This document shows positions 10,925-62,202 of a DNA stretch of 64,000 bases, one piece after another (position 1 is the first letter of the stretch; each line of letters begins with the position of its first letter). The notes beneath the pieces are model-generated. The model was not told the origin of the DNA. It did not search any database and was given only the letters and a program-made list of their open reading frames with translations. A program made the translations under genes and the position numbers. This stretch comes from Dehalococcoidia bacterium (GTDB lineage: Bacteria > Chloroflexota > Dehalococcoidia > DSTF01 > JACRBR01). The stretch lies in the NCBI GenBank assembly GCA_035632115.1, contig DASQHL010000133.1:792-64791 (forward strand), read 5' to 3'.

Positions 10925-11962
10925 TTAGCGCCGGCGCAGGCGCCGCCGCCGGTCGAAGCGGTCCGTCAGCACCACCTCCCGGTCACCTGCGTGCAGCGCG
11001 AACGTGAAGAACCAGCCGGCTAGCGCCAGCATGAGCGCGCCGCCGAAGAACGACCACTTCCACCACTGCGTCGTCGCGCCGTCGTTGCCGGCGGAAGGCA
11101 GCCCGCCGGCCTTGCCGCTCGCCGTCGGTTCGACACCGCCCGCAGGGGGCGCCGCGAGCGCCGGCGTCGGCTGGTTGGCATTGGAGATGACGGTGATGCG
11201 CGGCGTCGCCGTTGGTGCCGCCGTCGTGGTGGCGGCGGGCGTGCCCGTGGTCGTGGCCGCCGGTGTGCCCGTCGCCGTCGTCACGGGCGTGTTGGTGCTG
11301 GTGGCGGTTGCCTGCGGCGTCGCCGTAGACGGGGCCACCGGCGTGCTCGTTGGGGTCGCAGTGACCGTCGGCGAGAGCGTCGGCGTCGCCGTCGGCACGG
11401 CGCCGCCCACCACGACGATCGTCGGGTTGCCGAGCGCCGGCGTGCTGGGCGTCGCCGTGCCGTCCTTTACCTGCACCCAGCTCCACTGGATGTTGGCGTT
11501 CCCGTTGGCCAGCGCGATGAACTGGATCGTCGCGACCGTGCCACCCCCGCTCACCTCCAGGCCGCTGTTGAGCTGGTACTCGTAGTTGATCTGGCCCGCC
11601 GGGTTCACCGAGTTGGTCAGCACGGCGCCCTCGGTCTGGTAGTTGAGGTCGGTGCCCGGGAACCACCCTGGCAGGATCTGCGTGCCGGGGGTCGCGTTGT
11701 CGGAGTCGGTCACCGCCACGATCGACGGATCGTACGTAATGCGGAATGCGACGTCATTGACGCTGGTGGCGTTCGACGCGGAGACCACCACCAGCACGCT
11801 CTGGCCGACGTTGAGCGACTGGCTTGACGGGGTCATCGATAGCGTGGCGGACGGGTTGGCCTGGACGCTGGGCGTGCGGACCAGCAGCAGCGCGCACACG
11901 GCTGCGATAGCGACCGGGAGGCGCGCGAGCACGCGCGCGCGGAGACGGTGCCGTCCTTGCAT
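10925..11962 (-). CDS. Exported cohesin-domain protein with a Thr/Pro/Ala-rich linker and a C-terminal TM anchor
   Basis: Signal peptide MQGRHRLRARVLARLPVAIAAVCALLLVRTPSVQA from the internal ATG at 11962. Cohesin-like beta-sandwich region. About 90-aa TPTATPT… low-complexity linker. C-terminal hydrophobic helix followed by an RRRRLRRR tail. Confidence 0.7.
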   Translation of the reverse strand: MQGRHRLRARVLARLPVAIAAVCALLLVRTPSVQANPSATLSMTPSSQSLNVGQSVLVVVSASNATSVNDVAFRITYDPSIVAVTDSDNATPGTQILPGWFPGTDLNYQTEGAVLTNSVNPAGQINYEYQLNSGLEVSGGGTVATIQFIALANGNANIQWSWVQVKDGTATPSTPALGNPTIVVVGGAVPTATPTLSPTVTATPTSTPVAPSTATPQATATSTNTPVTTATGTPAATTTGTPAATTTAAPTATPRITVISNANQPTPALAAPPAGGVEPTASGKAGGLPSAGNDGATTQWWKWSFFGGALMLALAGWFFTFALHAGDREVVLTDRFDRRRRLRRR

Positions 11963-12139: not shown

Positions 12140-12811
12140 CTACGCCTGCGGGGTCAGCTTCGCGACAAGATGCAGACGCCGGTCGAAGAGCAGGCTCGCC
12201 GGCCACGGGTACAGCCCCGCGTGCTCGCTCCACTGCCGCACGTCCAGGCCTGCCGCCGCAAACGCGGCGCGCCACTCGCCCGGCGAGAGGTAGTGGTACG
12301 GGAGCGCCACGCCGTGCTGGTGATTCCCGAACCAGTCCATGAAGCGCAGCGTGCGCTGCGCCAGCAACCCCTGCCGCAGGTGGTCCTTGATCACGATGCA
12401 ATCGCCCGCCACCCGCCGCGCCTCCCGGAGCAGCGGCAGCGGGTCGATCGTGTGGTGCAGCACGTCGACGAACAGCACGGTATCGAAGCTGGCGGCCGGA
12501 TGCGGGATCGTGCTCCCATCGAACTGCTCCACGGGGATGCGCGCGCCCGGCCGCACGAGCACCTCGACGCCGTGGATCGTGACGTCCGGACGCTCGCGGA
12601 GGATCATCGCGTCGAGCGTGCCATCGCCGCAGCCGACGTCCAGGATGCGCGCCCCCCGCGGCAGGAGCGGTCCGAGCTGCGCGGCGAGCCTGCGCACTCT
12701 GCGTCCGAAGACGAACCTCGCGTGGATGTCGCCGCCCCGCCTGTTCGCCGTCGCGCCGGGCGGCGTCGGCTGCCCCTGCGGCGGCGGCCGGCCGGGCTCC
12801 CCGGCGTTCAC
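12140..12811 (-). CDS. Class I SAM-dependent methyltransferase
   Basis: Motif I ILDVGCGDGTLD. GTG start overlaps the TGA stop of the upstream GT2 gene (GTGA). The remainder of ORF 12140..13675 is antisense to the GT2 gene. Confidence 0.7.
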   Translation of the reverse strand: MNAGEPGRPPPQGQPTPPGATANRRGGDIHARFVFGRRVRRLAAQLGPLLPRGARILDVGCGDGTLDAMILRERPDVTIHGVEVLVRPGARIPVEQFDGSTIPHPAASFDTVLFVDVLHHTIDPLPLLREARRVAGDCIVIKDHLRQGLLAQRTLRFMDWFGNHQHGVALPYHYLSPGEWRAAFAAAGLDVRQWSEHAGLYPWPASLLFDRRLHLVAKLTPQA

Positions 12812-13977
12812 TCCGTCTCCAGCAGGCTGGCGAGCGCGCCGACGAGGCCGATGTTGACGCCGACAATGATCAGCGCCTGCGCGATCGCGGCCAGGTCGAG
12901 CGTGCTGATACCGGAGATGGTGACAAAGGCGAGCACCAGGTCCAGCGCGGCGCCGGCGGCGATCAGCGCCAGCGCCAGCGCGATCAGCGCCTCCAATCCC
13001 AGGTAGCGGCGGTAGAAGCGCAGCACCGCGTCTTCGTTCGTGATGCCGCGCCGCGTCGTGAACAGCCGCGAGGCGAAGCCCAGCAGCAGCGCGTTCACGC
13101 CCACGACCAGGAAGATGCCGCCGGCGAAGATCGGCTGCCAGCGCGTGTCGCCGATCTGGATGCCGTTCGCCGGCAGCGCCAGAGCGAGCGTCAGCACGCC
13201 GACGACCGTCAGCAACGCGCCCGGGAGCGTGAACAGGTAGTTCGGGCTGGCGAGCAGCAGGAAGCGCAGGTGGCGCCACCCGTCTCGGAACGTGTTGAGC
13301 TTCGCCTCGCCGAGCCGTTCGCCGTACGGCACCGGCACCTCGGCGACCTTCAGGCCCCGGCGTGCCGCCTTGAGGATCATCTCGGACGCCAGCTCCATGC
13401 CGTCCGTGCGCAGCTCCAGCCGGTCGAGCGCGCCCCGCGTGAAGGCGCGGAGGCCGCACTGGCTGTCGCCGGCACGGAGGCCCGTGAACAGCTTCAGCAG
13501 GAACGAGATCGCCGGCGTGCCAATGTAGCGGTGGCTCCACGTCATGGCCCCGGGCGCGATGCCCCCGGCGAACCGGTTGCCCACCGACATGTCGTACCCC
13601 TCGGCCAGCGGTTGGATCAGGCCGCCGAGGTCGCTGAAATCGTACGTGTCGTCGCAGTCTCCCATGACCAGCCATTCGCCGCGCGCCTCGGCGAAGCCGC
13701 GGCGCAACGCCGCCCCGTAGCCGCGCGCGGACTCGCGCACCACCCGCGCCCCGGCGGTGGCGGCTATCTCGGCGGAGGCGTCCTCCGACCCGTTATCGAC
13801 GACGATCACCTCGCCCGGCGTTCGGGTGCGCTTCAGCCAGTCCTGCGCCTTCCGCACGCAGACGCCGACCGTCTGCTCCTCGTTCAGGCACGGCATGACG
13901 ATGGAGACGAACGCCTGCGCGTTCACCGCGGCGGCGCGCGCCTCGTACGCCGGTTGACCGGGACTGTTGCTCGCCAC
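12808..13977 (-). CDS. GT2-family polyprenyl-phosphate sugar synthase-like glycosyltransferase (DPM1/GtrB/Ppm1-like), catalytic domain plus C-terminal TM helices
   Basis: N-terminal …SIVMPCLNEEQTV…VIVVDNGSEDASAEIA… (GT-A DxD region). Four C-terminal hydrophobic helices. GTG start at 13977 follows GAAAGGG. The upstream part of ORF 12808..15291 is non-coding or antisense. Confidence 0.75.
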   Translation of the reverse strand: MASNSPGQPAYEARAAAVNAQAFVSIVMPCLNEEQTVGVCVRKAQDWLKRTRTPGEVIVVDNGSEDASAEIAATAGARVVRESARGYGAALRRGFAEARGEWLVMGDCDDTYDFSDLGGLIQPLAEGYDMSVGNRFAGGIAPGAMTWSHRYIGTPAISFLLKLFTGLRAGDSQCGLRAFTRGALDRLELRTDGMELASEMILKAARRGLKVAEVPVPYGERLGEAKLNTFRDGWRHLRFLLLASPNYLFTLPGALLTVVGVLTLALALPANGIQIGDTRWQPIFAGGIFLVVGVNALLLGFASRLFTTRRGITNEDAVLRFYRRYLGLEALIALALALIAAGAALDLVLAFVTISGISTLDLAAIAQALIIVGVNIGLVGALASLLETE

Positions 13978-14211: not shown

Positions 14212-17025
14212 ATGCCTGTACCAGCGGTGCTGCCCGTGAGCGCGCCACGTCGGTGGGCGCAACGTCTCCGCCGGACGTGGCCCCGGACGCCAGCCTCCAT
14301 CGCCATCACCATCGCCCTGGGCGTCAACCTGCTGGTGGCCGGCGCATACCTCTGGAGTCGCGGCGGCGAGACGATTCATCTGCGGATGGTCGCGCAGGAT
14401 GACCACTTCACGGTGTTCGTCAACGGGCGCGAGCAGGCGTCGGCGCGGCTCGAGGCGGCCGCCACGGGCGGCATCCGCCTGACGGTCGCCGACACGGGCG
14501 CGATCCCGAGCCTGCCGACGCCGCGCGGGATCGATAGCGTCCGCGTCACGGACCTCGCCACCAATGCTGTGCTCTTCCAGGACGACTTCTCCAGGTCGCC
14601 GCGGGACAACGCGGCGTGGCGCATCGTGGGGACGCCACTGGTGAACGGCGGTGCCGTCGGCGCAGGCCAGCAGGGCGTGACGCTGCAGTCCTTCGGCCAC
14701 CCGTGGCACAACTACGCCGTCGATGTCACGTATCGCAACATCGTGGCGGCGTCCGTCCGTGTGCGCGCGGCGGACGAGCAGAACGGCGTCGATTTCAGCT
14801 TCCGGCCATTCCGGCACCTGGACAACTCGCTCTCGCTCCTCGTCAACGGCAAGACCGTCACGTCGATCTCCGGTCCGACCCTGAAGCTCTCGCCGCAGAC
14901 GACGATCCGGTCGATGCTGTGGACGCTGCTGGACCCGTATCCAAAGGTCGCGCTGCTGCTGCTCGTGGGGTTGATCGCCGTGGCGGTGCTGCAGTTCGTG
15001 CCGGCGGAGACCGTGCGTGCGCTGCATGTGCCGCTGCCGCGGGCCGCACCGTGGCTCGCCGTCGGAGCGATGGCGGCGGTGGCGTTCGCCGTGACGTTGT
15101 TCCTGGGGTACGTGTACGGGAGCCACATGCCACACGTCCCGGATTCGGTGTCGTACGTGTTCCAGGCGAAGGTGCTGGCTGCGGGCCACCTCTCGGCGCC
15201 GGCGCCCCCCTCTCCGGCGTTCGACTTCTTCTTCCCTCCACTGATCGAGGTGCACCACGGGCGTTGGGCCAGCGTCTACCCGTTCGGCCACCCGCTGGTC
15301 CTCGCGGTCGGCGAGCTGTTCCGCGCCATCTGGCTGGTGCCACCGCTGATCGGCGCGGCGGGCGTGGCGCTGATGTTCGCGGTCGGGCGGCGCCTATACA
15401 ACGTGCGGACGGCGTTGCTGGCCGCCCTGCTGCTGGCCGGCTCGCCGTTCTTCATGATGTCGGCAAGCGACTACATGTCGCACAACACCGCCGCGTTCTA
15501 CGTGCTGCTGTCCGTGCTGTTCCTCGTGTTGCACGATCGGCGGCCGCTGTTGTTCCCGTTCCTCTCCGGTGTCTTCTTCGGGCTGCTCTTCAACACCCGC
15601 CCGCTGACGGCGGCGGGCCTCGTCGCGCCGTACGGCGTCATGCTGCTGAGCTTCCTGGTGCCCCGCAACGGGCGGAAACTCGCGCTGAAGCAGATCGTCG
15701 CATTCGCAGCCGGAGGGCTGCTGATGCTGCTGGCGTACTACCTGTACACGTGGGGCGCGACGGGTAGCCCGTTCACGATCTCCGCCACGCAGGCGAATAA
15801 GAACAACGTCGGGTTCGGCGGGACCCACACCCTGGCTGCCGGCGTCTCGAACGACCAGACGCAGCTGGCCATGCTGGCTCTTGTCCTCAACGACTGGCCC
15901 GTGTACCTCGGCCTGGTGGTGGTGCTCCTGCCGTTCATCCTGGGTACGCGCAACCGCTGGGACTGGTTCTTCCTCGCGTGCGCGGCCATGGCCATGGGCG
16001 TGTACACGCTCTACTACTCGCCGGGAATCATGCACGGGCCGCGGTACTGGTACGAGGCGACGCCGTTCCTGCTCCTCCTGACGGCGCGTGGCGTCGACCG
16101 CGCGGCGCGGTTGCTGGCGGCCGGCGCGGCGCACCTGCGGACGCGGCTGCTGCGCACGGAGGCCGCGCCGGCCGAGTGGGCCGGCGTGTCCGTCACGTAC
16201 GCGTTCGTCGTCGTGCTGATAGCGGCGGGCGCCTACGGGTGGCTGCGCGGCGACGGCAAGCCCTGGCGCATCGACCTCATGCCGGCGCATGCGCGCGACC
16301 TGCGTGGATTCAACGGCGCCAACGACGCCTTCACCCGGACGGTCGCCGCTGCCCACCTGCACAACGCCCTCGTGCTGATGCAGCCGTGCCCGAACTGGCA
16401 GTGCTACGGCACCGTGTTCTGGACCATGTCGCCGTGGCTCACCGGGAACGTGGTCTACGCGCGGAACCTCGATGGTGGGCTCCAGCCCGTCTTTGACGCC
16501 TTCCCGGATCGCCGGGTCTACATCGGCGACTGGGCTGCGCGCACCCTCCTGCCCTACGGCGCCACGCCGGCCGCGGTCGGGCCCTCGCAAGGCCCGGCGA
16601 CCGCGCCGCGCGCGAAGGAGATCCCCACCGAGGCACCGCGCGCCACGCCCACCCCGGCGCCGACTCCGACCATCGATGTGGCGCTCGCGTCGCGGCGGGA
16701 TACCGCCCGCCGCAAGGATCTGGACGCCGTGGCAGCGGCGCTCGATCGGTACCGGTCGCAGCACGGCGCCTATCCGCAGGTCAACGGCGTGCAGACGCTC
16801 TGCGGCTACCCGTCCGATGTCGGCTGCGTGCTCAAGAAGGTGCTCGACCCGCTGCCGACCGACCCACGGAACAACCAGTCGTACTGGTACACGTCTGACG
16901 GCACGTCGTTCACGCTGTTTGCGGAGATGGAAGAGGCGCCCGGGCCGTCCCAGTGCCCCAACCCCGCGCCCGAGCACCTGGCCGGCGTGCCGAATCTGTA
17001 CTGCGTCCATCGTGGCTCCGGTTGA
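14212..17025 (+). CDS. PMT/ArnT-like (GT-C fold, PMT_2/GT39-GT83-like) membrane glycosyltransferase with an N-terminal beta-rich extracytoplasmic domain and a C-terminal T2SS GspG/pseudopilin-like domain
   Basis: Uses the frame of ORF 13270..17025, whose 5' part is antisense to the GT2 gene. Candidate starts are the ATGs at ~14110 and ~14212. There are at least 10 predicted TM helices. C-terminal motif LDAVAAALDRYRSQHGAYPQ…DPLPTDPRNNQSYWYTSDGTSFTLFAEME matches GspG-type pseudopilin globular domains. Confidence 0.75.
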   Translation: MPVPAVLPVSAPRRWAQRLRRTWPRTPASIAITIALGVNLLVAGAYLWSRGGETIHLRMVAQDDHFTVFVNGREQASARLEAAATGGIRLTVADTGAIPSLPTPRGIDSVRVTDLATNAVLFQDDFSRSPRDNAAWRIVGTPLVNGGAVGAGQQGVTLQSFGHPWHNYAVDVTYRNIVAASVRVRAADEQNGVDFSFRPFRHLDNSLSLLVNGKTVTSISGPTLKLSPQTTIRSMLWTLLDPYPKVALLLLVGLIAVAVLQFVPAETVRALHVPLPRAAPWLAVGAMAAVAFAVTLFLGYVYGSHMPHVPDSVSYVFQAKVLAAGHLSAPAPPSPAFDFFFPPLIEVHHGRWASVYPFGHPLVLAVGELFRAIWLVPPLIGAAGVALMFAVGRRLYNVRTALLAALLLAGSPFFMMSASDYMSHNTAAFYVLLSVLFLVLHDRRPLLFPFLSGVFFGLLFNTRPLTAAGLVAPYGVMLLSFLVPRNGRKLALKQIVAFAAGGLLMLLAYYLYTWGATGSPFTISATQANKNNVGFGGTHTLAAGVSNDQTQLAMLALVLNDWPVYLGLVVVLLPFILGTRNRWDWFFLACAAMAMGVYTLYYSPGIMHGPRYWYEATPFLLLLTARGVDRAARLLAAGAAHLRTRLLRTEAAPAEWAGVSVTYAFVVVLIAAGAYGWLRGDGKPWRIDLMPAHARDLRGFNGANDAFTRTVAAAHLHNALVLMQPCPNWQCYGTVFWTMSPWLTGNVVYARNLDGGLQPVFDAFPDRRVYIGDWAARTLLPYGATPAAVGPSQGPATAPRAKEIPTEAPRATPTPAPTPTIDVALASRRDTARRKDLDAVAAALDRYRSQHGAYPQVNGVQTLCGYPSDVGCVLKKVLDPLPTDPRNNQSYWYTSDGTSFTLFAEMEEAPGPSQCPNPAPEHLAGVPNLYCVHRGSG

Positions 17026-17165: not shown

Positions 17166-19157
17166 GTGATGATGCCTAGAAATCCCTTCGACATCCTTGG
17201 CATCTCGTTGGACGCCGAGCCAGAGGTCATCCTAGCCGCCTACAGGACGCTTGCGAAGAAGTACCATCCTGACCTTAACCCTAACGATTCGCCAAGTTAC
17301 CTCAACGAGCGCATGGCCGATCTGAACTGGGCGCGAGCAGAACTCGATCGCGATCTGCCCGGCTGGCGAGCGAGGAAGAGAGCCGAGACGCGCCAGTCGG
17401 GCGCTGGATACGCACAGCCACGCCAACCCCCCCCCCCACGTCACGCTCCAGCGCCGTCGGATGCGCCGCCCTCCAAAGCCCCGGGCCAGGCCCAAAGTAC
17501 CGGCGCAGGTACCGTTTCCGAAGCTCAAGCTACACGCGCGCCACGGCCGTCGTGGCTATCGAACGAACTGCTCATCGAGATCGCGTTCGTCGCCGCCGTG
17601 ACCGCGGCGGCGCTGCTGATGCGCCTGTGGGGTCTCTCCGGCCTGCCGCACGGGCTCCACGGCGACGAGGCGGCGACCGGCCTCGACGCGCGAAAGATCC
17701 TCGCCGGCACCGACCTCTTCCCCTACACGCCGAGCGCGCTCGGCCAGCCGTCCGGGCCGATGTACTGGGCGGCGCTCTGGATCAAGCTCCTCGGCTCGAC
17801 GATCTTCGCTGTCCGCCTGGCCATGGCACTGCTCGGCGTAGGCACGGTCGTCCTCGGCTACTACGCGTTTCGGCTGCTCTTCGGGCGGCCGGTGGCATGG
17901 GCGGGCGCCACCATGCTCGCCTTCTCATCGTGGCTCGTCTTCTACAACCGCACAGGCTTCACCGCATCGGCGATGCCGTTCACGGAGATGGCGGCGCTGC
18001 TGGCCGTGGCCGTGGCGCTGCGAAAGGGTTCGCCCGCGTGGTTCATCCTCGCCGGCGCAGTGGTGGGCGCCGGCATCTACGGCTACTTCTCGTTCCCGCT
18101 CTTCGCCGTGGCGCTCGCGGTGTGGCTCGTCCTCCACGCGCTCGTCGAGCGGCTGCGACCGTTCGGCCTCACTGAGCCGTTCTGGCTGCACGCGCGCAAC
18201 GGCGCGCTGATGGCGCTGACCGCGCTGCTGCTCATCCAGCCGATGTGGCCCTACTTCACCGGCAAGAACCAGGGCTACACGCACGACCGCCAGGTGTTCG
18301 CACTCTCGAAGACACAGGCATACCAGCAGGCGGACACCCTCGGGCGTGTGCGGCTCTACTGGGACAACGCCCGCCACGTGATCAACGTGCTGCGGGAAGG
18401 TGGCCACCCCGACGCCTCGGACGGCTCGGGCGAAGTGTCGGCGCTGGACCCGCTACTGGTCGTGCTCTCACTGGCCGGCGCGGCCCTGTGCGCCGTCCTT
18501 GCCGTGACGCGGAAGCGCGCCGCCTACCTGCTGCCGCTGATCGTCGTCCCGATCGTGCTCATCGGCCCCATCTGGAGCGCCGGCGGCGTGCACCGGCGCT
18601 CGCTGGGGATCCTGCCCTTTGTGATCATGCCGGCCGCCGTGCTGCTGGGCACTGCGTGGGAGTGGCTCCGCGACCACGGCCGGCCGGGGCTTGCGGCGGC
18701 CGCCCTCTGCGTGCCGCTGGCGCTGTTCGCCGCCACGAACATCGACCGCTACTTCCGCCAGACGCCGGACTCGCAGGTGATGCTGTTCACCTACGCGCCG
18801 GAGCTGACCGACGCGGCGCTGCTGATCGATGCGCAGCCCCGGGACGTGCACGTCTACTTCGCCTCCGGGCGCTGGTCGGCCGGGTACGAGACGGTGCAGT
18901 ACCTCGTGCCGAATCGCGCGCTCGGCGACGGCACGCTGGAGGACCGGTCGAAGGAGTTCAGCAAGATCACCGGGTACGGCGGCCTCGACCGGACGCACCC
19001 TGCCTTGATCGTGCTCATGAACAACTACATGCAGGACGCGGACAAGGTCGCCGCCGAGTACCCGGAAGCGAAGAAGCTCGTCGGCGCCACGGTGAACAGG
19101 CTGCCGGCCTTCATCGCATTCTCCATCCCGGCACGGCAGGCGACGGGCGCGCCATGA
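17166..19157 (+). CDS. DnaJ J-domain fused to a PMT/ArnT-like (PMT_2) GT-C membrane glycosyltransferase
   Basis: N-terminal J domain with HPD (FDILGISLDAEPEVILAAYRTLAKKYHPDLNPND). Pro-rich linker. Multi-TM GT-C domain with the ArnT/PMT-type motif LHGDEAATGLDARKI in the first periplasmic loop. Confidence 0.8.
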   Translation: MMMPRNPFDILGISLDAEPEVILAAYRTLAKKYHPDLNPNDSPSYLNERMADLNWARAELDRDLPGWRARKRAETRQSGAGYAQPRQPPPPRHAPAPSDAPPSKAPGQAQSTGAGTVSEAQATRAPRPSWLSNELLIEIAFVAAVTAAALLMRLWGLSGLPHGLHGDEAATGLDARKILAGTDLFPYTPSALGQPSGPMYWAALWIKLLGSTIFAVRLAMALLGVGTVVLGYYAFRLLFGRPVAWAGATMLAFSSWLVFYNRTGFTASAMPFTEMAALLAVAVALRKGSPAWFILAGAVVGAGIYGYFSFPLFAVALAVWLVLHALVERLRPFGLTEPFWLHARNGALMALTALLLIQPMWPYFTGKNQGYTHDRQVFALSKTQAYQQADTLGRVRLYWDNARHVINVLREGGHPDASDGSGEVSALDPLLVVLSLAGAALCAVLAVTRKRAAYLLPLIVVPIVLIGPIWSAGGVHRRSLGILPFVIMPAAVLLGTAWEWLRDHGRPGLAAAALCVPLALFAATNIDRYFRQTPDSQVMLFTYAPELTDAALLIDAQPRDVHVYFASGRWSAGYETVQYLVPNRALGDGTLEDRSKEFSKITGYGGLDRTHPALIVLMNNYMQDADKVAAEYPEAKKLVGATVNRLPAFIAFSIPARQATGAP

Positions 19158-19693: not shown

Positions 19694-20953
19694 CTACCGT
19701 ACCGGCAGCAACTCCTCGTACAGCGCCGCTACCGCGTCCGCCACGTTCGCCCAGCGGAAGCGCTCGACCGCCTCGCGCCCGGCGCGGCCAAACGATGCCC
19801 GAAGCTCGTCGTTCTCCAGCAGCAGCTCCAGGCGCTCGGCGAACGGCTCTGGACAGCGCCACGGCACCAGGTACCCCGTCTCGCCGTCGCTGACCGTGCT
19901 GGTCAGCCCGCCGACCCGTGACGCGATTACCGGCGTTCCGCACGCCATCGATTCCACCGCCACCAGCCCGAAGCTCTCGTAGTACGACGGCACGACGCAG
20001 ACGTCTGCGGCGTTGTAGTACAACGGCAGCGTCTCGTGCGGCACGGCGCCGATGAACGAGATGTGATGGTCGATGCCGAGGGCCGCGGCGTGCCGGCGCA
20101 GCTCATCGATCTGCGCCCGCGCCCGCGCGTCGCCGCCGACGATCAGCACGGCGAAGTTCTCGTCATCGTGGAGCTGCGCCGCCGCGCTGATCAGGATGTC
20201 GATGCCCTTGAGCGGCTCGATGCGGCCGACGAAGAGGATGATCCGCTGTGACGCGCCGATGCCGAGACGCCGCCGCGCGAACTCCTTGTCCATCGGCGCG
20301 AACAGGTCCAGGTCAACGCCGCACGGCACCACCGAGATCGCATCGCCTCGCGCGCCGTACAGCGACATCAGCAGGTGCCGCTCGTGCTGGCTCGCCACCA
20401 CGATGCGGTCGGCGGCGGCGGCGATCGCGCGCTCGGCGGCGATCCGGCCGGCGGGCTCATGCTCGCCCGCATGGGCGCGATTCTTCACTTCGCCCAGCGT
20501 GTGGAACATCGCCACGTGCGGCACGCCCCAGTCCGCCGCCAGGCGCGACGCCACCACCCCGGACATCCAGTAATGGCTGTGCACCACGTCGTACGCGGAG
20601 CCCTCCCGCGTCACGAACGCGCGCACGCCGGCCTCGAACTCGTCCAGCACGCCGGCGATCGCTTCCTTCTCGACCGGCGCGTTCGGCCCGGCGGCGATGT
20701 GCACGACGCGCGCGTTCGGGCCGAACGGCTGCACCTCCGGCGCCGCGTCCGACGCCAGGCGCGTGAACACGTCGATGGTGTACCCGCGTGAGCCAAGTTC
20801 GCGGCTCAGCTCGCGCACGTAGACGTTCATGCCGCCCGTCTCGCGCCCACCCAGCGTGGCCAGCGGCGACGTGTGTGCCGAGATCACGGCGATGCGGCGG
20901 CTCCGCGGCGCGCGCCTGGCGGCGGGCGGCACGGGCTCGTGGAGGGCTGTCAC
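19694..20953 (-). CDS. GT4 retaining glycosyltransferase of the MshA (D-inositol-3-phosphate glycosyltransferase) family
   Basis: MshA-type N-terminal signature RIAVISAHTSPLATLGGRETGGMNVYVRELS. C-terminal GT4 E-x7-E region (…VVPSYYESFGLVAVESMACGTPVIAS…). GTG start overlaps the upstream stop (GTGA). Confidence 0.8.
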   Translation of the reverse strand: MTALHEPVPPAARRAPRSRRIAVISAHTSPLATLGGRETGGMNVYVRELSRELGSRGYTIDVFTRLASDAAPEVQPFGPNARVVHIAAGPNAPVEKEAIAGVLDEFEAGVRAFVTREGSAYDVVHSHYWMSGVVASRLAADWGVPHVAMFHTLGEVKNRAHAGEHEPAGRIAAERAIAAAADRIVVASQHERHLLMSLYGARGDAISVVPCGVDLDLFAPMDKEFARRRLGIGASQRIILFVGRIEPLKGIDILISAAAQLHDDENFAVLIVGGDARARAQIDELRRHAAALGIDHHISFIGAVPHETLPLYYNAADVCVVPSYYESFGLVAVESMACGTPVIASRVGGLTSTVSDGETGYLVPWRCPEPFAERLELLLENDELRASFGRAGREAVERFRWANVADAVAALYEELLPVR

Positions 20954-21936
20954 TTCGTCAACACCAGCCGGTACACCTGCTGGTCCTTTCCGCCAAGGTC
21001 GTACTTGTAGCTCTCGTCGCCTCGCAGGAAGTCTACGCACGAGCGGCCCTGTTCGATCGCGTCCCGGAGCAGCAGCGCCTTGGACATCAGGCCGACCGCG
21101 TAGTGCGCGTAGGCGGGGTCGTACCCACTATTGTACATGTACAGCCGCCCGCCCAGGTCGAAGTTGAGCACCGCCGCCACCGCCTGGCCATCCAGCGTCA
21201 AGATGTACAGCCGCAGCATCCCCTCCGAGGCCATCGTCGACGTCATCTCCCGGAAGAACGCCTCCATGCCCGGCCGCTCCAGGAACTCCTCCTTGTGGTG
21301 CGAGCTGATGCGCATCAGGTGGAACAGCGTATCGAGCGATGCGCCCGCTTCCTCCGCCTCCGTGACGGCGCGGAGCCGCAGGTCCCCGCCGGCGCTCTCC
21401 AGCCGCCGCAGCTTGCGCCGCAGCTCGTGGCGGTCCTTCTTGGAGAGCGTCGCCAGGTAGCCGTCCCACGTGTCCGGCAGGTCCACCGTCGGCGAGTGCG
21501 CCTCGTCCTCGCGCTGCACGGCCAGGCCCAGGGCGGCGGCGGCATCGGCCGCGGCGGACGTCGTGGGGCTGGCCGCCCGCAGGCCGCGCAGGTCGATTTC
21601 GCGCACCCCGTCCGCCAGCAGGCGTTCCAGCACGGCGGGGAAGAACGACCGCTCGAAGCCCGGCGTCACGACCACGTCCATGTAGTCGCAGATGGAGTAG
21701 TGCCCGACCAGCTCCGCCCGCTCGCCCTCGCAGAGCAACGGCGCCACGCCGATCAGGCGCTCGCCGTCCCGCGCGGTCAGCAGGCGCACGCGGCGCCCCG
21801 CCTGGAAGTGCTTCAGCCAGACGCGTTGCCAGGCCGGCGTGACGAACGGCACCGGGTTCGATACCTGCCCGAGCAGCCCGACCCACTCCGCGCTGATCCG
21901 GTCGAGCGGCTCATCCAGCACCGTCAACGGCGTCAC
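20950..21936 (-). CDS. FemAB/CelD-like GNAT (Acetyltransf_6/BioF2-like) acyl- or aminoacyl-transferase
   Basis: 329-aa protein of the GNAT-fold FemAB/CelD family (…[44 protein letters not shown]…). GTG start overlaps the folE stop (GTGA). Confidence 0.7.
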
Positions 21937-28910: not shown

Positions 28911-29921
28911 CTAGGGGTGTACCCCTACCCAGGCGACGACAGCGTCCTCGATCGTGCGTTGGGCCGCGGCGGCGTCGTCCAGCGTCTTGTGGCTGACGAG
29001 CGCCAGCCCGCCGCCGCCGTCGCTTGGCGCCACGGGGGCGCGCTCCGTGCTCGCGTCGACGTTCGTCACGTTCGGCCGGCCGATGCCCGAGCCGTGCCAC
29101 CCCTCGTTGAGCTGGTACACGTTGAGGATCGGCGTCCGCAGTGGCATCTCGGTGGCATTGCGGTCGTACAGCGCGGTTGTGCGGTCGATGATGACGCCGT
29201 ACATCCGCGCCCCGAAGCGCATGTCGAGCGCGGCCGTGACCGACGTGACCGTCACCGCCCCGTGGCTGTGGCCCAGCAGCACGGCGCGCAGGCACGGCAT
29301 CGCCTCCAGGCGGAGCGCCACCTCGTGCCCAAGCCACTGCTCCATGCGTGTCTGCGGCAGATCCGCGCCGAACAGCGCCGATGTGGCCAGCACCGTGTCC
29401 GTCGCCACGCCCGCCGCCCCCAGCCGCTGCTGCAGCGTGCGCACGATGTCCAGCAACCCCATGCTCTCGCCCCCCGACGGATCCAGCAGGTTGCTGCCGG
29501 CGCTCGCCGCGGAGACGATCAACACGGGCGGCACACGCGCGGCGCAACTGTACCCCGCGGCGTCAGACGGCGGGCCGGCGTAGAAGTCGCTGCGATGCGC
29601 CGGATCGATGCAAGCCTCGCCGGCGACCAGCGGGATGTCGAGCCCGGCCAGCGCGCTGCCGTCACCCGCATTCAGCCGGCCGTCATGGTCGCGGTCAAGG
29701 CAAGAGATCTGGATCGGCACGCCGCCGCGGGACGTCGCCAGCCCCTCGATCCACGTCGCCGGCAGTGGCGTCGCCGTCGGTTGCGCGGGCGACGGAGTGT
29801 GCGTCGGGAGGGGGATCGTGGCGGACTGGCTGCTGCCGGCGCCGTTCGCGAACACGAGGTACAGCACTGCCGCTGCCACCGTGGCCACGGCAAGCAGCAC
29901 CAGCGCGGACGCGAATCTCAT
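28911..29921 (-). CDS. Secreted alpha/beta-hydrolase (lipase/esterase-like) protein
   Basis: N-terminal signal/TM MRFASALVLLAVATVAAAVLYLV. Thr/Pro-rich spacer. GxSxG nucleophile elbow in LLGHSHGAVTV. Confidence 0.6.
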   Translation of the reverse strand: MRFASALVLLAVATVAAAVLYLVFANGAGSSQSATIPLPTHTPSPAQPTATPLPATWIEGLATSRGGVPIQISCLDRDHDGRLNAGDGSALAGLDIPLVAGEACIDPAHRSDFYAGPPSDAAGYSCAARVPPVLIVSAASAGSNLLDPSGGESMGLLDIVRTLQQRLGAAGVATDTVLATSALFGADLPQTRMEQWLGHEVALRLEAMPCLRAVLLGHSHGAVTVTSVTAALDMRFGARMYGVIIDRTTALYDRNATEMPLRTPILNVYQLNEGWHGSGIGRPNVTNVDASTERAPVAPSDGGGGLALVSHKTLDDAAAAQRTIEDAVVAWVGVHP

Positions 29922-33741: not shown

Positions 33742-33790
33742 TCGATCGACGGGCGCGCCCGGCGCGCTCTGTTATCATCTCCCGGTGACG

Positions 33791-59769: not shown

Positions 59770-60765
59770 GTGCCGCGCCCATCCCGCCGCATCGTCACGC
59801 TGCTCCTCTTCTCGGTGGCCACCTGCGCCGCGCTCACCGGCTGCGGCATCGTCGGCGGCGCCTCCGCCACGTCGACCCCCACCCTGACCGCCACCGCGAC
59901 GCCCACCCTGACGCCCACGCTCACCCCCACCTTCACCCCTTCCCCGACGCCCAGCGCTACCTCCACGCCCGCGCCGCCCGCCACGCCTGAGGTCGAGATG
60001 TCGCAGGGCCGCACCGCCGTGCTCCACGTCGGCAACGGCGGCGCCTCCGGGGCCACGGCAGTCTTCCGCGGCCGCACCTACACACTGGTGCCGGACAGCA
60101 CCGGCTTCTGGGTGCCCATCGGTGTGGGCGCCACCGTCAAGCCCGGCGACTATGTTGCCACCGTCACCCTCACCGATGCCTCGGGCGGCGTCATCCAGAC
60201 CGAGAATCTGCTGGTGCGCGTCGACCCCACGAACTTCCCGTCGGAGAACGTCGATGTCGCGACCAGCGGGCCGAACGGCCTCCAGCCCCCCGACCAGGTG
60301 CAGAAGGAGCTGGAGATCCGCGCCTCCATCTACGCGAAAGAGAGCCCGGTCAAGCTCTGGAGCGGCCCTTTCATCATCCCCGCGCCCGGCCCCATCACCA
60401 CCGCCTTCGGCACCGCGCGCAGCTACAACGGCGGCCCGATCTCGGAGCACCACAGCGGCACGGACATCGGCGCCGCCGAGGGCACGCCCGTCGTCGCCGC
60501 TAACGCCGGCCGCGTCGTCTTCGTCGGCATGCTCACAACGCGTGGCAACTCCGTGATCATCGATCACGGTCTCGGCGTCTTCACCGCCTACCATCACCTG
60601 TCCGCGTTCAGCGTGACCGAGGGCCAGGTCGTGCAGAAGGGCCAGACCATCGGCGCGGTCGGCATGACCGGCCTGGCCACCGGGCCGCACCTGCACTGGG
60701 AGCTCGTCGTCGGCGGCCAGAACGTCGACCCGGTCTACTGGACCTTCGAAGGTGTCGCACCCTAG
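59770..60765 (+). CDS. Lipoprotein M23-family metalloendopeptidase with a Thr/Pro-rich linker
   Basis: Lipobox LLFSVATCAALTGCG. TPTLTATATPTLTPTLTPT linker. M23 motifs HxxxD (…EHHSGTDIGA…) and HLH (…TGPHLHWEL…). Confidence 0.85.
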   Translation: MPRPSRRIVTLLLFSVATCAALTGCGIVGGASATSTPTLTATATPTLTPTLTPTFTPSPTPSATSTPAPPATPEVEMSQGRTAVLHVGNGGASGATAVFRGRTYTLVPDSTGFWVPIGVGATVKPGDYVATVTLTDASGGVIQTENLLVRVDPTNFPSENVDVATSGPNGLQPPDQVQKELEIRASIYAKESPVKLWSGPFIIPAPGPITTAFGTARSYNGGPISEHHSGTDIGAAEGTPVVAANAGRVVFVGMLTTRGNSVIIDHGLGVFTAYHHLSAFSVTEGQVVQKGQTIGAVGMTGLATGPHLHWELVVGGQNVDPVYWTFEGVAP

Positions 60766-61459
60766 CCCGGCGGCGCGCCCCGCCGCCCCGCCACCCGCAC
60801 CCGCCCTCGTGCGCCTCCACGCCGCACTCGCATCGGCGTACGCCGGCCAGCTGTGGCACTGGGCGCCCGGCGTCGCCCGCGGCCCGATGGAGATCATCGC
60901 CGGCGCGGTCCTCGTCCAGCACACCACCTGGACCAACGCGGAGCGCGCGCTCGACGCCCTCCGCACGGCCGGCGCGCTCGACGCATCCGCCCTCGCCGCC
61001 CTGCCGGAGCGCGAGATCGCCGCGCTCGTCCGCGTCAGCGGCACGCCCACGGTGAAGGCCCGCCGCCTGCGCGCCGTCGCCCGCACGATCGAGGCGGCCG
61101 GCGGTCTCGATGCGCTGCTCGCGCTCCCGCACCACGCCCTCCGCGCAGCCCTGATCGAGACGCACGGCATCGGCCCCGAGACCGCCGACGCGGTCGCCCT
61201 CTACGCTGCCGGCCATCCCGCCTTCGTCATCGACGCGTACACGCGACGCCTGTTCGGGCGTCTCGCCCTCGGCCCCGGCGCGCGCGCGTCGTACGCTGCC
61301 TGGCAGCGCTGGTTCGAAGACCGCCTGCCGCCCGACGTCACCCTCTACCGAAACCTCCACGCCTACATCGTCCTGCACGGCAAGACGCTCTGCCGCGCCG
61401 TGCCCCGCTGTGACGCGTGCCCGCTCCGCCCGCAGTGCCCCGAAGGCTGCGGCCGATGA
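60752..61459 (+). CDS. HhH-GPD superfamily DNA glycosylase (endonuclease III-like with a C-terminal [4Fe-4S] cluster)
   Basis: HhH-GPD region …LIETHGIGPETADAV…. C-terminal C-x6-C-x2-C-x5-C (CRAVPRCDACPLRPQC). Confidence 0.8.
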   Translation: MSHPSPAARPAAPPPAPALVRLHAALASAYAGQLWHWAPGVARGPMEIIAGAVLVQHTTWTNAERALDALRTAGALDASALAALPEREIAALVRVSGTPTVKARRLRAVARTIEAAGGLDALLALPHHALRAALIETHGIGPETADAVALYAAGHPAFVIDAYTRRLFGRLALGPGARASYAAWQRWFEDRLPPDVTLYRNLHAYIVLHGKTLCRAVPRCDACPLRPQCPEGCGR

Positions 61460-62202
61460 CGCGCGCGCTGGCGCGGCCCTTCGCGGCCGGGCTGCTGGCC
61501 GCAATCGTTGCGCTCTCGCTGGGCTGCTCCGCCGCGCGAAGTGTGCGCGACCGCATCACCGGCGCCGGCACGCCCGCGCCCATCCGCACGCCCACCCACA
61601 CGCCGACCATCACGCCGACGCCCACCCCCACCTTCACGCCCACCCCCACGGCCACGCCCACGCCCGTGCTCCCGCAGAACCCCGCCGGGCTCGATCGCTG
61701 GGATACCCTGCCCATCCCCTACTGCGTCTCCACCGGCGGCGCGGGCTACGTCAGCAACGCCCTCTTCGTCATCGCCGTGCAGCGCGCGTTCACCGCTTGG
61801 GGTGTGCCGACCCGCTACACCGGCCAGTGCGGCCCGCCGAAGCAGGACGACGGCATCAACGAGATCGGCTGGGGTGCCCTCAACTCTGAGCGCGCGCAGA
61901 TCTACGAAGCCGGCATCACCCTCCGCATCACCTCGCAGTGTCGCAGCAACTGCGACCCCAACGACCGCATCCGCCTGGCCGAGGCCGATATCACGGTCGA
62001 CTCGCACCCGCCCGCCGAGTTCCGCACCGCCAACTGCCTCTACGCCACGCTGCTGCATGAGACCGGCCACTTCCTCGGTCTCGAGCACCTGCCGGCGCCC
62101 TCCGTCATGGAGGCCGAGACCTCCGGCTGCCGCACGCAACTCACCGCCGCCGACCGCCAGGCGCTCCTCGCCCGCTACGGCGCCCGCGCCCACCCGCAAT
62201 AG
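61456..62202 (+). CDS. Lipoprotein metzincin-type zinc metalloprotease (matrixin/M10-like) with a Thr/Pro-rich linker
   Basis: ATG overlaps the upstream stop (ATGA). Lipobox LSLGCSA. TPTHTPTITPTPTPTFTPTPTATPTP linker. Metzincin motif HETGHFLGLEH. Confidence 0.7.
   Translation: MTRALARPFAAGLLAAIVALSLGCSAARSVRDRITGAGTPAPIRTPTHTPTITPTPTPTFTPTPTATPTPVLPQNPAGLDRWDTLPIPYCVSTGGAGYVSNALFVIAVQRAFTAWGVPTRYTGQCGPPKQDDGINEIGWGALNSERAQIYEAGITLRITSQCRSNCDPNDRIRLAEADITVDSHPPAEFRTANCLYATLLHETGHFLGLEHLPAPSVMEAETSGCRTQLTAADRQALLARYGARAHPQ

What the first reader, a model, noticed from the sequence alone, without database searches (positions are those of the whole stretch)
10925..11962. Exported proteins with Thr/Pro-rich linkers are candidate O-glycosylation acceptors for the GT-C enzymes
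Three exported or lipid-anchored proteins in the window carry long low-complexity (T/P/A)n spacers between their signal peptide and catalytic or binding domain. These are the cohesin-domain protein here (linker ~11180-11400), the M23 peptidase (59770-60765, TPTLTATATPTLTPTLTPT) and the metzincin lipoprotein (61456-62202, TPTHTPTITPTPTPTFTPTPTATPTP). In actinobacteria such linkers are the sites of Pmt-dependent O-mannosylation. Their presence near a PMT-like locus supports a functional protein O-glycosylation system. The cohesin domain is itself uncommon outside cellulosome-forming bacteria.
Basis: inference. Interest (0 to 1): 0.5.

Follow-up and report, generated by a model that had tools for sequence, protein, structure and literature searches.

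The report
Membrane-anchored cohesin protein on Thr/Pro stalk
The gene encodes a previously undescribed, Chloroflexota-specific surface protein (a cohesin-fold head on a long threonine/proline-rich stalk with a C-terminal membrane anchor). In many relatives it sits directly beside membrane glycosyltransferase genes, so sugar decoration of the stalk is plausible but unproven.

Summary
Window 10925-11962 (-) encodes a 345-aa exported protein with a cohesin fold and a ~90-aa Thr/Pro/Ala stalk. The M23 peptidase and the metzincin are lipobox proteins with T/P tethers.

Two corrections are needed:
- In the cohesin protein the stalk follows the domain.
- Only this gene lies next to the GT2/GT-C genes. 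The other two are 41-45 kb away.

The protein belongs to a narrow, unnamed family of about 100 homologues, all from Chloroflexota/Dehalococcoidia MAGs. All 16 GT-C genes found in 528 kb of flanking DNA lie within 7 kb upstream of the family gene. They occur in 12 of 28 loci, fall into about 5 clades, and represent at least 4 GT-C types.

This supports a functional link for this protein only. The enzymes match PMT_2 or GT87, not demonstrable GT39 Pmt. The fold is closest to ArnT and the oligosaccharyltransferases. No glycosylation data exist.

T/P tethers are generic here: 4 of 50 ORFs carry one, and each adjoins a membrane anchor.

The parts
10925..11962 (-). Gene for the 345-aa cohesin-module surface protein (focal gene)
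   Evidence: ATG with GAGGA SD. The exact product is on Logan contig SRR6788488. About 100 homologues of 325-360 aa.
11858..11962 (-). N-terminal signal peptide (aa 1-35, MQGRHRLRAR..., predicted cleavage VQA|N)
   Evidence: Conserved MQGxHxxRAR plus a hydrophobic core plus AxA in alignment A1. KD hydrophobic peak at aa 10-28. Cleavage is inferred, because no SignalP was available.
11408..11857 (-). Cohesin-fold module (aa 36-185)
   Evidence: PF00963 E=3e-4, 21.4 bits, below GA. Model pLDDT >=90. Foldseek top 50 hits are all cohesins, best 5k39_A at E=4e-10.
11135..11407 (-). Thr/Pro/Ala-rich disordered stalk (aa 186-276; core 11198-11401)
   Evidence: T 32%, A 22%, P 18%. pLDDT <50. Composition is conserved across the family but sequence is not (median 77 aa, T 35%). 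It is encoded partly by 6- and 24-nt tandem repeats.
11174..11209 (-). Conserved juxta-stalk motif ATPRITVISNAN (aa 252-263)
   Evidence: Consensus [AST]TPR[IV]T[VIM]xx[ND]SN in A1. Function unknown.
11087..11101 (-). LPSAG motif (aa 288-292), sortase-signal-like LPx[A/T]G
   Evidence: Present in 99 of 102 homologues with a variable third position, 55-66 aa from the C-terminus.
10988..11065 (-). C-terminal transmembrane helix (aa 300-325, WWKWSFFGGALMLALAGWFFTFALHA)
   Evidence: Predicted helix 300-325. Hydrophobic peak. Nearly invariant W/F/G positions.
10928..10987 (-). Conserved cytoplasmic tail [20 protein letters not shown]
   Evidence: Conserved GDxEVVLxDRFDRRRRRR. The C-terminal 75 aa occur only in this family among 1.84e9 representative proteins.
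12140..12810 (-). SAM-dependent methyltransferase gene, same strand, 177 bp upstream of the focal gene (start approximate)
   Evidence: Methyltransf_23 E=9e-17. Methyltransferases recur with GT2/GT-C in L004, L016, L023 and L025.
12808..13977 (-). GT2 with C-terminal TM helices; polyprenyl-phosphate sugar synthase type (start approximate)
   Evidence: Glycos_transf_2 E=5e-27. AglJ and dolichyl-P-hexose transferase models. Closest solved relatives are ArnC 9bhc/8vxh and DPMS 5mlz. 4-5 hydrophobic segments at aa 289-427.
14212..17025 (+). GT-C1: large PMT_2-type GT-C with an extracytoplasmic N-domain, a TPTPAPTPT linker (16624-16677) and a pseudopilin-like C-domain (16702-16905)
   Evidence: PMT_2 31.8 bits and T2SSG 19.5 bits. 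LA_3751/3752 family E=4e-10. About 10 TM segments.
17169..19157 (+). GT-C2: PMT_2-type GT-C (about 520-550 aa core) with an in-frame N-terminal J-domain (17184-17327); HGDE motif at 17658-17669
   Evidence: PMT_2 49.1 bits and DnaJ 35.2 bits. Homologues are about 550 aa and named 'GT family 39 protein' by NCBI. Invariant H27, D29 and E30. Model pLDDT 93, GT-C fold nearest to ArnT/AglB.
59770..60765 (+). M23 peptidoglycan endopeptidase lipoprotein; lipobox LTGC 59833-59844; T/P tether 59860-59997
   Evidence: PF01551 E=7e-33. Pgp3/ShyA-type NCBIfam hits. Sequence read. Tandem 12/24-nt repeats.
61417..62202 (+). Metzincin lipoprotein; lipobox SLGC 61513-61527; T/P tether 61558-61689; HExxHxxGxxH at 62056-62088
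   Evidence: Peptidase_M10 21.4 bits, below GA. Motifs read. Tandem 6/24-nt repeats.
28911..29921 (-). Fourth T/P-tethered protein: N-terminal TM anchor, then TIPLPTHTPSPAQPTATPLPAT (29754-29819), then a domain with no family match
   Evidence: No Pfam or NCBIfam family.

Best explanation
The focal gene encodes a type-I membrane-anchored cell-surface protein of an unnamed family restricted to Chloroflexota (GTDB class Dehalococcoidia MAGs). A Sec signal peptide exports it. A single cohesin-fold module is held away from the membrane by a 70-110-aa extended, disordered Thr/Pro/Ala stalk. The protein is retained by a conserved LPx[A/T]G motif, a TM helix and an Arg-rich tail.

The T/P segments in this protein, in the two lipoproteins and in a fourth membrane protein are all tethers. 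Each joins a membrane anchor to an extracytoplasmic globular domain.

For the cohesin-like protein specifically, the stalk is most likely decorated on Thr by the neighbouring extracytoplasmic glycosylation machinery. The proposed steps are these. The GT2 loads a sugar onto polyprenyl phosphate at the cytoplasmic face. The lipid-linked sugar is flipped. The GT-C enzymes then transfer it to the stalk outside the membrane. The adjacent methyltransferase may modify the sugar.

Shown: the architecture, the fold, family conservation, gene adjacency and enzyme class. Inferred: signal-peptide cleavage, topology, and that the stalk (rather than a glycan or lipid) is the GT-C acceptor.
For: Architecture and family:
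- establish the architecture and the family.
- The stalk's composition is conserved while its sequence is not.
- All four T/P segments adjoin a membrane anchor, far above the chance expectation of 0.035.

Enzymes:
- The GT2 is of the polyprenyl-phosphate glycosyltransferase type.
- GT-C2 has a confident GT-C fold with an invariant HGDE motif in loop 1.

Gene context:
- GT-C genes lie directly upstream of the family gene in the window, L002, L003, L004, L006 and L007.
- They also do so in L016, L019, L020, L021, L023, L025 and L033.
- 16 of 16 GT-C ORFs in 528 kb of flanks fall in the 35% of sequence within 7 kb upstream, and none fall elsewhere.
- The adjacent enzymes belong to at least 4 GT-C groups in about 5 clades. 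This argues for repeated recruitment rather than one inherited accident.

Precedents:
- PT linkers of Cellulomonas enzymes carry up to 32-65 mannoses added by GT39 (PMC12757957, PMC11727336).
- C. bescii Cbes_1864 is a 556-aa GT-C encoded close to celA. It is required for glycosylation of T/P-linker enzymes (PMC6151902).
Against: - No biochemical evidence of protein glycosylation exists in this lineage. A literature search found nothing relevant.
- 16 of 28 loci with enough upstream sequence have no GT-C within 7-10 kb, including a whole clade.
- The region is broadly syntenic, with a GCH1-AcT6-GT4 block upstream and a radical-SAM gene downstream. Part of the association is therefore inherited.
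- The GT-Cs match PMT_2 or GT87, not Pfam PMT or PMT_4TMC.
- By fold they are closest to ArnT, which has a lipid acceptor, and to N-oligosaccharyltransferases. Pmt4 ranks only 16th.
- GT87 enzymes are known, from my own knowledge, for glycolipid and lipoglycan mannosylation rather than protein glycosylation.
- T/P tethers occur on proteins with no glycosyltransferase neighbours, so they can function as plain spacers.
Confidence: 0.45

Rival explanations
1. Plain spacer model. The T/P/A segments are unglycosylated, extended, protease-resistant tethers that let membrane-anchored domains reach through or across the wall. The neighbouring GT2/MT/GT-C genes build or modify a non-protein envelope component, such as a wall polysaccharide, glycolipid or lipoglycan. 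They are near the cohesin-like gene only because both belong to a conserved envelope-biogenesis region.
For: - T/P tethers occur in four unrelated anchored proteins, three of them far from any GT-C.
- GT-C2's best structural match is ArnT, a lipid A-modifying enzyme.
- GT87 neighbours occur in one clade.
- The region is broadly syntenic, with GT4, a FemAB-like acetyltransferase, SLT, Ala racemase and a radical-SAM gene.
- 16 of 28 loci lack an adjacent GT-C.
Against: - At least four different GT-C groups are placed at exactly the same position relative to the same small gene, either divergent or co-directional with gaps of about 110-180 bp. None lies elsewhere in the flanks.
- Thr-dominated composition (T:S about 5:1) is conserved across about 100 homologues. 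It resembles proven O-mannosylated PT linkers (PMC12757957).
Confidence: 0.3
2. Sortase-substrate model. LPx[A/T]G, a hydrophobic segment and a cationic tail form a cell-wall sorting signal. A sortase cleaves after the fourth residue and links the protein to peptidoglycan. The T/P stalk is then the wall-spanning region, as in Gram-positive surface proteins. This model is compatible with glycosylation of the stalk.
For: - An N-terminal signal peptide is present.
- LPx[A/T]G occurs in 99 of 102 homologues, with L, P and G fixed and the third position free (S, D, A, H, T, N, Q, G, V). It sits at a fixed distance from the C-terminus.
- A TM helix and an Arg-rich tail follow.
- The organism has peptidoglycan genes: M23, SLT, Ala racemase and MreB.
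Against: - The TIGR01167 LPXTG_anchor model scores only 9.3 bits against a cutoff of 15.9, and it aligns only the TM part.
- The segment after the motif is 55-66 aa, longer than usual. The TM helix and the 20-aa tail are strongly conserved and unique to this family among 1.84e9 representatives. That is more typical of a functional anchor than of a discarded signal.
- No sortase-like ORF occurs in the window or in 36 loci.
Confidence: 0.2
3. Anchoring-scaffoldin model. The cohesin module binds dockerin-bearing (or otherwise cognate) secreted proteins and displays them at the cell surface. The stalk is only a spacer. The GT-C neighbours are unrelated or modify the partner.
For: - The fold is unambiguously cohesin, with type II and type I cohesins as best matches.
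- Cohesin, linker and membrane or wall anchor is the layout of anchoring scaffoldins. This last point is from established knowledge of cellulosome systems.
Against: - No duplicated dockerin-type Ca-binding motif occurs in any ORF of the window or of 36 related loci.
- Sequence identity to solved cohesins is only 13-22%.
- There is a single module per protein.
- No glycoside hydrolase context is present.
Confidence: 0.15

Closest known systems
Actinobacterial Pmt (GT39)/Ppm1 protein O-mannosylation of Pro/Thr linkers (Cellulomonas fimi CenA/Cex, M. tuberculosis, S. coelicolor)
   Same: - The substrates are exported proteins with disordered Thr/Pro-rich segments.
- The enzyme logic pairs a GT2 polyprenyl-phosphate sugar synthase with a polytopic GT-C.
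- GT-C2 carries a loop-1 DE motif (HGDE) (PMC11727336, PMC12757957).
   Different: - There is no hit to Pfam PMT PF02366 or PMT_4TMC, only PMT_2.
- No sequence similarity to solved PMTs was found, even with a profile.
- ArnT, AglB and STT3 are closer by fold than Pmt.
- The phylum differs.
- Several GT-C types, including GT87, occupy the same genomic position.
- The sugar is unknown, and a methyltransferase is adjacent.
Caldicellulosiruptor bescii Cbes_1864 (CAZy GT39) and CelA
   Same: - It is a roughly 550-aa polytopic GT-C encoded close to genes for its T/P-linker substrates, in a non-actinobacterial monoderm.
- The linker motif TPTPTATATP resembles the M23 tether TPTLTATATPTLTPT (PMC6151902, PMC12757957).
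   Different: - The substrates there are secreted multidomain cellulases, not a membrane-anchored cohesin protein.
- Function there was shown by gene deletion. Here nothing is tested.
- I could not compare the sequences because Cbes_1864 is not available in the tools.
Cohesin modules of anchoring scaffoldins, and non-cellulosomal cohesins (e.g. A. fulgidus 2xdh, C. perfringens 2jh2)
   Same: - It has the nine-stranded beta-sandwich fold, with TM-score to targets of 0.6-0.78.
- The layout is one module, a linker and a cell-surface anchor.
   Different: - The Pfam score is below the gathering cutoff.
- No dockerin partner lies in the neighbourhood.
- The anchor is a C-terminal TM helix with LPx[A/T]G rather than SLH repeats or a canonical LPXTG signal.
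Gram-positive LPXTG cell-wall sorting signals (sortase substrates)
   Same: - It has the tripartite C-terminus: a pentapeptide with a free third position, a hydrophobic stretch and a cationic tail.
- A Pro/Thr-rich putative wall-spanning region precedes it.
   Different: - The fourth residue is mostly Ala.
- The signal is longer (55-66 aa), highly conserved and family-specific.
- It falls below the TIGR01167 cutoff.
- No sortase was seen nearby.
Haloarchaeal TafF (Tat-fimbria membrane anchor) and PGF-CTERM/Thr-rich S-layer glycoprotein stalks
   Same: - It has a Sec signal, an N-terminal beta-sandwich of about 140 aa, a low-complexity region and a C-terminal TM anchor (PMC11821415).
- A Thr-rich O-glycosylated stalk preceding a C-terminal anchor is the design of haloarchaeal S-layer glycoproteins. 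This last point is from my own knowledge.
   Different: - The TafF model scores only 16 bits against a cutoff of 420, and it aligns to the low-complexity and TM part. It is an analogy, not membership.
- No taf-like or archaeosortase genes were seen.

Membership tests
Cohesin (Pfam PF00963) | Sequence match to the family HMM above the gathering score | tested here: not met
   21.4 bits against GA 24.1, E=3e-4, aa 62-176. Sixteen homologues carry precomputed PF00963 hits.
Cohesin (Pfam PF00963) | Nine-stranded jelly-roll beta-sandwich superimposable on solved cohesins | tested here: met
   Model pLDDT >=90 over aa 40-185. The top 50 Foldseek PDB hits are all cohesins, E down to 4e-10, TMt 0.6-0.78.
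Cohesin (Pfam PF00963) | Cognate dockerin-bearing partner proteins | tested here: inconclusive
   No duplicated dockerin-type motif occurs in ORFs of the window or of 36 loci. Whole genomes could not be searched.
GT39 protein O-mannosyltransferase (Pmt) | Match to Pfam PMT (PF02366) and PMT_4TMC (PF16192) | tested here: not met
   Only PMT_2 PF13231 is found, at 31.8 bits (GT-C1) and 49.1 bits (GT-C2). phmmer and a profile search against PDB sequences find no PMT.
GT39 protein O-mannosyltransferase (Pmt) | Polytopic GT-C fold | tested here: met
   The GT-C2 model has pLDDT 93. It matches ArnT, AglB, STT3, PglB, ALG9 and Pmt4.
GT39 protein O-mannosyltransferase (Pmt) | PMTs are the nearest structural relatives | tested here: not met
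   ArnT 5f15 (E=5.5e-9) and AglB rank first. Pmt4 ranks 16th (1.2e-6) and Pmt1/2 score about 5e-4 to 1e-3.
GT39 protein O-mannosyltransferase (Pmt) | Conserved Asp-Glu (DE) motif in the first extracytoplasmic loop | tested here: met
   GLHGDEA is invariant (H27, D29, E30) in GT-C2 and its homologues. It is absent from GT-C1 and from the GT87 neighbours. The motif's role in GT39 is described in PMC11727336.
GT39 protein O-mannosyltransferase (Pmt) | Partner polyprenyl-phosphate mannose synthase (GT2) | tested here: inconclusive
   An adjacent GT2 resembles AglJ, DPMS and ArnC. Its sugar specificity is unknown.
GT39 protein O-mannosyltransferase (Pmt) | Transfers mannose to Ser/Thr of secreted proteins | not testable with these tools
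   This needs MS or a lectin blot with and without the enzyme.
Sortase substrates (LPXTG cell-wall sorting signal) | N-terminal signal peptide plus C-terminal LPXTG-like pentapeptide, hydrophobic segment and basic tail | tested here: met
   LPx[A/T]G occurs in 99 of 102 homologues. A TM helix spans aa 300-325 and the tail is Arg-rich.
Sortase substrates (LPXTG cell-wall sorting signal) | Match to the TIGR01167 LPXTG_anchor model above its cutoff | tested here: not met
   9.3 bits against a cutoff of 15.9, with only the TM part aligned.
Sortase substrates (LPXTG cell-wall sorting signal) | A sortase encoded in the genome | tested here: inconclusive
   No SrtA-like ORF or TLxTC signature occurs in the window or in 36 loci.
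Bacterial lipoproteins (M23 and metzincin proteins) | Signal peptide ending in a lipobox [LVI][ASTVI][GAS]C or the PROSITE PS51257 pattern | tested here: met
   M23 has ...CAALTG|C and the metzincin has ...VALSLG|C, read directly. The pattern rule is from my own knowledge, and no predictor was run.
TafF family fimbrial anchor (NF052523) | Match to the equivalog model above its cutoff | tested here: not met
   16 bits against a cutoff of 420.

The most novel reading that the evidence does not exclude
The cohesin-like protein may be the dedicated protein acceptor, or primer, of a GT-C-built surface glycoconjugate. On this reading it is a mucin-like, possibly methyl-hexose-decorated membrane glycoprotein specific to a large uncultured Chloroflexota lineage. 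Different clades would have recruited different GT-C families (PMT_2 groups, GT87, large multidomain GT-Cs) to decorate the same stalk. That would be a protein O-glycosylation system outside GT39. Its unique LPx[A/T]G-TM-tail module would serve as a recognition or retention element rather than a classical sortase signal.
Probability: 0.2. Interest if true: 0.6.

Novelty: new member of a known kind. Interest (0 to 1): 0.35.

Why it matters
If the stalk is glycosylated by the neighbouring enzymes, this would be the first defined enzyme-substrate pair for protein O-glycosylation in Chloroflexota. This phylum is abundant in soils, sediments and groundwater, and its envelope is poorly understood. 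It would also show PMT_2 or GT87-type GT-C enzymes, most of which are uncharacterised, acting on a protein.

The pair is compact: one small gene beside its candidate transferases. It is therefore directly testable by heterologous co-expression.

If instead the tethers are bare spacers, the finding is ordinary. T/P linkers next to membrane anchors would then be a routine design in high-GC monoderm bacteria.

Tried and rejected
- **Start codon.** The longest ORF (TTG at 12007) has no exact match in public assemblies. The ATG at 11962 does.
- **Known C-terminal sorting domains.** An NCBIfam scan at E<=10 of the C-terminal 70 aa gave only sub-threshold LPXTG_anchor and TafF hits. I treat TafF as an analogy after reading PMC11821415.
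- **Shared sorting signal.** I searched the C-terminal 75 aa against 1.84e9 representatives. There were only 19 hits. All are the same family or fragments of it, plus one repeat artefact, P0107. I rejected the idea.
- **Dockerin partners.** Regex scans for duplicated Ca-binding motifs found none.
- **Sortase nearby.** A phmmer search with S. aureus SrtA (sequence from memory) and a TLxTC regex found none.
- **N-oligosaccharyltransferase reading.** L002's neighbour has a weak STT3 hit, but no GT-C ORF carries a WWDxG motif. I rejected this reading.
- **GT-C detection in the loci.** Single-sequence phmmer was too insensitive for GT-C detection. I replaced it with an iterated HMM and Pfam spot checks of candidate neighbours. 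Those turned out to be patatin, T2SSE, PBP and ParA-like proteins.
- **Sequence searches of the GT-Cs against PDB.** Single-sequence and profile searches found nothing.
- **Promoter and terminator scan.** It was uninformative for operon structure.
- **Literature.** Searches for O-glycosylation or sortases in Chloroflexi/Chloroflexota returned nothing relevant.
- **Source contig.** Looking up P0115, which is 100% identical to GT-C2, failed to recover the source contig.
- **Not done.** I did not search for homologues of the M23 and metzincin proteins, because the result would not change the verdict.
Full report
**Observation**

The window is about 71% G+C. The focal ORF lies on the minus strand. 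The longest reading (TTG at 12007) has no public counterpart. The ATG at 11962 is preceded by GAGGA, and its exact 345-aa product is on record.

The protein reads as follows:
- MQGRHRLRAR followed by a hydrophobic core ending VQA|N.
- A globular domain, aa 36-185.
- A Thr/Pro/Ala-rich segment, aa 186-276 (window 11135-11407). Composition is T 32%, A 22%, P 18%.
- A conserved ATPRITVISNAN motif.
- GGLPSAGNDG.
- A hydrophobic helix, WWKWSFFGGALMLALAGWFFTFAL.
- The tail [20 protein letters not shown].

Its stated position, between signal peptide and domain, is wrong for this protein. The C-terminal anchor was missed.

The M23 protein has PF01551 at E=7e-33 and lipobox LTGC. The metzincin has HETGHFLGLEH and lipobox SLGC. 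Both carry T/P tethers directly after the lipobox Cys.

A scan of 50 window ORFs finds four with such segments, against 0.035 expected after within-protein shuffling. The fourth is an unannotated N-terminally anchored protein at 28911-29921. GT-C1 also has a short TPTPAPTPT interdomain linker. Every one of these segments adjoins a membrane anchor. The linker DNA consists of imperfect 6/12/24-nt tandem repeats.

**The domain**

Pfam Cohesin scores 21.4 bits, below the 24.1 gathering cutoff. An AlphaFold2 model built on a 25-sequence alignment has pLDDT >=90 across aa 40-185 and <50 across the stalk. It also has a confident helix at aa 300-325.

Its 50 best PDB matches are all cohesins, led by 5k39_A at E=4e-10. 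They include the non-cellulosomal cohesins 2xdh and 2jh2. The fold call stands. The remark that cohesins are uncommon outside cellulosome producers does not. No dockerin-type duplicated motif occurs in any ORF of the window or of 36 related loci.

**The family**

About 100 homologues of 325-360 aa cover the full length. Where named, they are from Chloroflexota/Dehalococcoidia MAGs. The 99%-identical P0001 is labelled Steroidobacteraceae, on a 5.4-kb contig, and this is probably a binning error.

A scan of species-representative genomes returned 29 loci, all Chloroflexota. In the alignment the N-terminus, the cohesin module and the C-terminal 75 aa are conserved. The stalk keeps its composition (median 77 aa, T 35%, P 17%, A 18%, S 7%) but not its sequence.

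LPx[A/T]G occurs in 99 of 102 members, with the third position free, 55-66 aa from the C-terminus. The C-terminal module was searched alone against 1.84 billion representative proteins. It found only 19 hits. Apart from one repeat artefact (P0107), all are the same architecture or fragments of it. It is therefore not a sorting tag shared among many substrates. No curated model covers the family. A 16-bit TafF hit is an analogy only.

**The neighbours**

Directly upstream on the same strand are a methyltransferase and a GT2 with C-terminal TM helices. The GT2's closest characterised relatives are AglJ, dolichyl-phosphate hexose transferases, ArnC and P. furiosus DPMS.

Divergent from the GT2 are two GT-C genes:
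- **GT-C1** is large. It has an extracytoplasmic N-domain and a pseudopilin-like C-domain.
- **GT-C2** has a core of about 520-550 aa, with an in-frame J-domain upstream.

Both hit only PMT_2, not PMT or PMT_4TMC. Neither a single sequence nor a 22-sequence profile finds any solved GT-C by sequence.

A pLDDT-93 model of GT-C2 is a GT-C fold. Its nearest matches are ArnT (5f15, E=5.5e-9), then AglB/STT3/PglB and ALG9. Pmt4 ranks 16th. GT-C2 and its relatives keep an invariant GLHGDEA in the first loop, reminiscent of the DE motif of GT39 (PMC11727336). No WWDxG oligosaccharyltransferase motif is present.

The enzyme class fits a polyprenyl-phosphate-sugar-dependent extracytoplasmic transferase. 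The acceptor class cannot be read from sequence or fold. No other GT-C and no sortase is present in the 64-kb window. The M23 and metzincin genes are 41-45 kb from the GT-C genes.

**Gene context elsewhere**

Six homologues on long contigs were looked up. In five, a PMT_2 or GT87 gene sits immediately upstream of the family gene, either divergent or co-directional with gaps of about 110-180 bp.

I built an iterated GT-C HMM and ran it over all ORFs of 31 distinct loci plus the window. It finds 16 GT-C ORFs. All lie within 7 kb upstream of the family gene, which is 35% of the 528 kb examined, and none lies elsewhere. Twelve of 28 loci with at least 2 kb of upstream sequence have one.

The neighbouring enzymes fall into at least four groups: PMT_2 group I, PMT_2 group II with its outliers, GT87, and large GT-Cs. 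A distance tree of the cohesin-like proteins shows that each arrangement follows a clade. That gives roughly five independent arrangements. One sizeable clade has no GT-C within 10 kb.

The region is otherwise broadly syntenic. A GCH1/FemAB-like/GT4 trio lies upstream in 9 loci and a B12-radical-SAM gene lies downstream in 12 or more. Part of the signal is therefore inherited. The recruitment of different GT-C families to the same position is harder to explain without a functional link.

**Mechanism**

The best-supported reading is an exported type-I membrane protein that displays a cohesin module on an extended stalk. All T/P segments in the window are tethers between a membrane anchor and an extracytoplasmic domain. 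For the cohesin-like protein, O-glycosylation of stalk Thr by the adjacent GT2/GT-C machinery is the most likely additional feature. I put confidence in the whole statement at about 0.45.

Experimental precedents exist:
- PT linkers of Cellulomonas enzymes carry up to 32-65 mannoses added by GT39 (PMC12757957, PMC11727336).
- In the Firmicute C. bescii a 556-aa CAZy-GT39 gene, Cbes_1864, lies close to celA. Its deletion removes glycosylation from T/P-linker enzymes (PMC6151902).

The rivals are these:
- Bare spacers, with the GT-Cs acting on glycans or lipids (0.3).
- A sortase-type wall anchor (0.2, compatible with glycosylation).
- A dockerin-binding scaffoldin (0.15).

For the M23 and metzincin lipoproteins there is no evidence beyond composition.

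**Comparison and novelty**

The system works like Pmt/Ppm1-type protein O-glycosylation. Membership in GT39 is not established: two of the defining features were tested and not met. The protein is a new, unnamed family that combines known parts, namely a cohesin fold, a PT stalk and an LPXTG-like C-terminus.

I found no literature on protein O-glycosylation in Chloroflexota. I file it as a new member of a known kind, with modest interest (0.35). The more novel reading is a dedicated GT-C/acceptor pair defining a non-GT39 protein O-glycosylation system in an uncultured lineage. Its probability is about 0.2.

Noticed in passing
window 14212-17025 (+), especially 16624-16905: GT-C1 is a ~940-aa GT-C. 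It has a ~200-aa extracytoplasmic N-domain, then a TPTPAPTPT linker, then a C-terminal domain weakly matching type II secretion pseudopilin GspG/T2SSG (19.5 bits; PDB 2kep E=0.009). A pilin-like domain fused to a GT-C is unusual. The L002 counterpart carries PA14/NHL instead.
   Followed up: partly
window 17169-17580 (+): A J-domain (DnaJ PF00226, 35 bits, 17184-17327) and a Pro-rich linker are in frame with GT-C2, with no stop between them. NCBI's 100%-identical protein P0115 starts later (519 aa), and homologues are ~550 aa without a J-domain. This is either a real J-domain/GT-C fusion or an upstream small gene that has lost its stop. L004 has a separate 103-aa DnaJ gene near its GT cluster.
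   Followed up: partly
L004 11562-21020; L026 11501-13303; L028 11658-13397: In three related loci a T2SSE/FlaI-type ATPase lies just downstream of the cohesin-like gene. In L004 it is followed by a KaiC-like ATPase and four archaeal-type flagellin (archaellin) genes. This is an archaellum-like cluster in a Chloroflexota MAG, flanked by the GT87/GT2/methyltransferase block.
   Followed up: no
window 28911-29921 (-): A ~337-aa protein with an N-terminal TM anchor, a T/P tether and a ~280-aa domain with no Pfam or NCBIfam match.
   Followed up: partly
window 30357-33771: Long overlapping ORFs on both strands have similar, atypically low GC3 (~0.77-0.80 against ~0.9 elsewhere). They have no Pfam hit except PHP at 30357-31619. 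The true coding strand and frame are unclear.
   Followed up: no
window 19694-23423 (-) and loci L002, L003, L005, L011, L016, L017, L031, L032: A conserved trio of GTP cyclohydrolase I, an Acetyltransf_6/FemAB-like protein and GT4 recurs upstream of the cohesin-like gene across the lineage. The combination and its product are unexplained.
   Followed up: partly
window 22665-24806 (+): A 713-aa protein has a C-terminal CehA/McbA-family metallohydrolase domain (NCBIfam E=6e-57). It has a ~300-aa N-terminal part with no family match and no Pfam hit at all.
   Followed up: no
L024 and L028 (same contig CAVUOT010000003.1, ~14 kb apart): Two paralogues of the cohesin-like gene lie on one contig. 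One is beside a cNMP-binding patatin-like phospholipase and the other beside a T2SSE ATPase. Neither has an adjacent GT-C.
   Followed up: no
P0001: The 99%-identical homologue is deposited as 'Steroidobacteraceae bacterium' on a 5.4-kb contig. All other relatives are Chloroflexota, so this is probably a mis-binned contig.
   Followed up: no
window 11004-11585 (+): An antisense ORF of 193 aa has GC3 0.92 opposite the stalk-coding region. It is an artefact of the repetitive ACC/CCG/GCC codon structure, not a gene. A similar antisense ORF lies at 59757-60077 opposite the M23 tether.
   Followed up: yes
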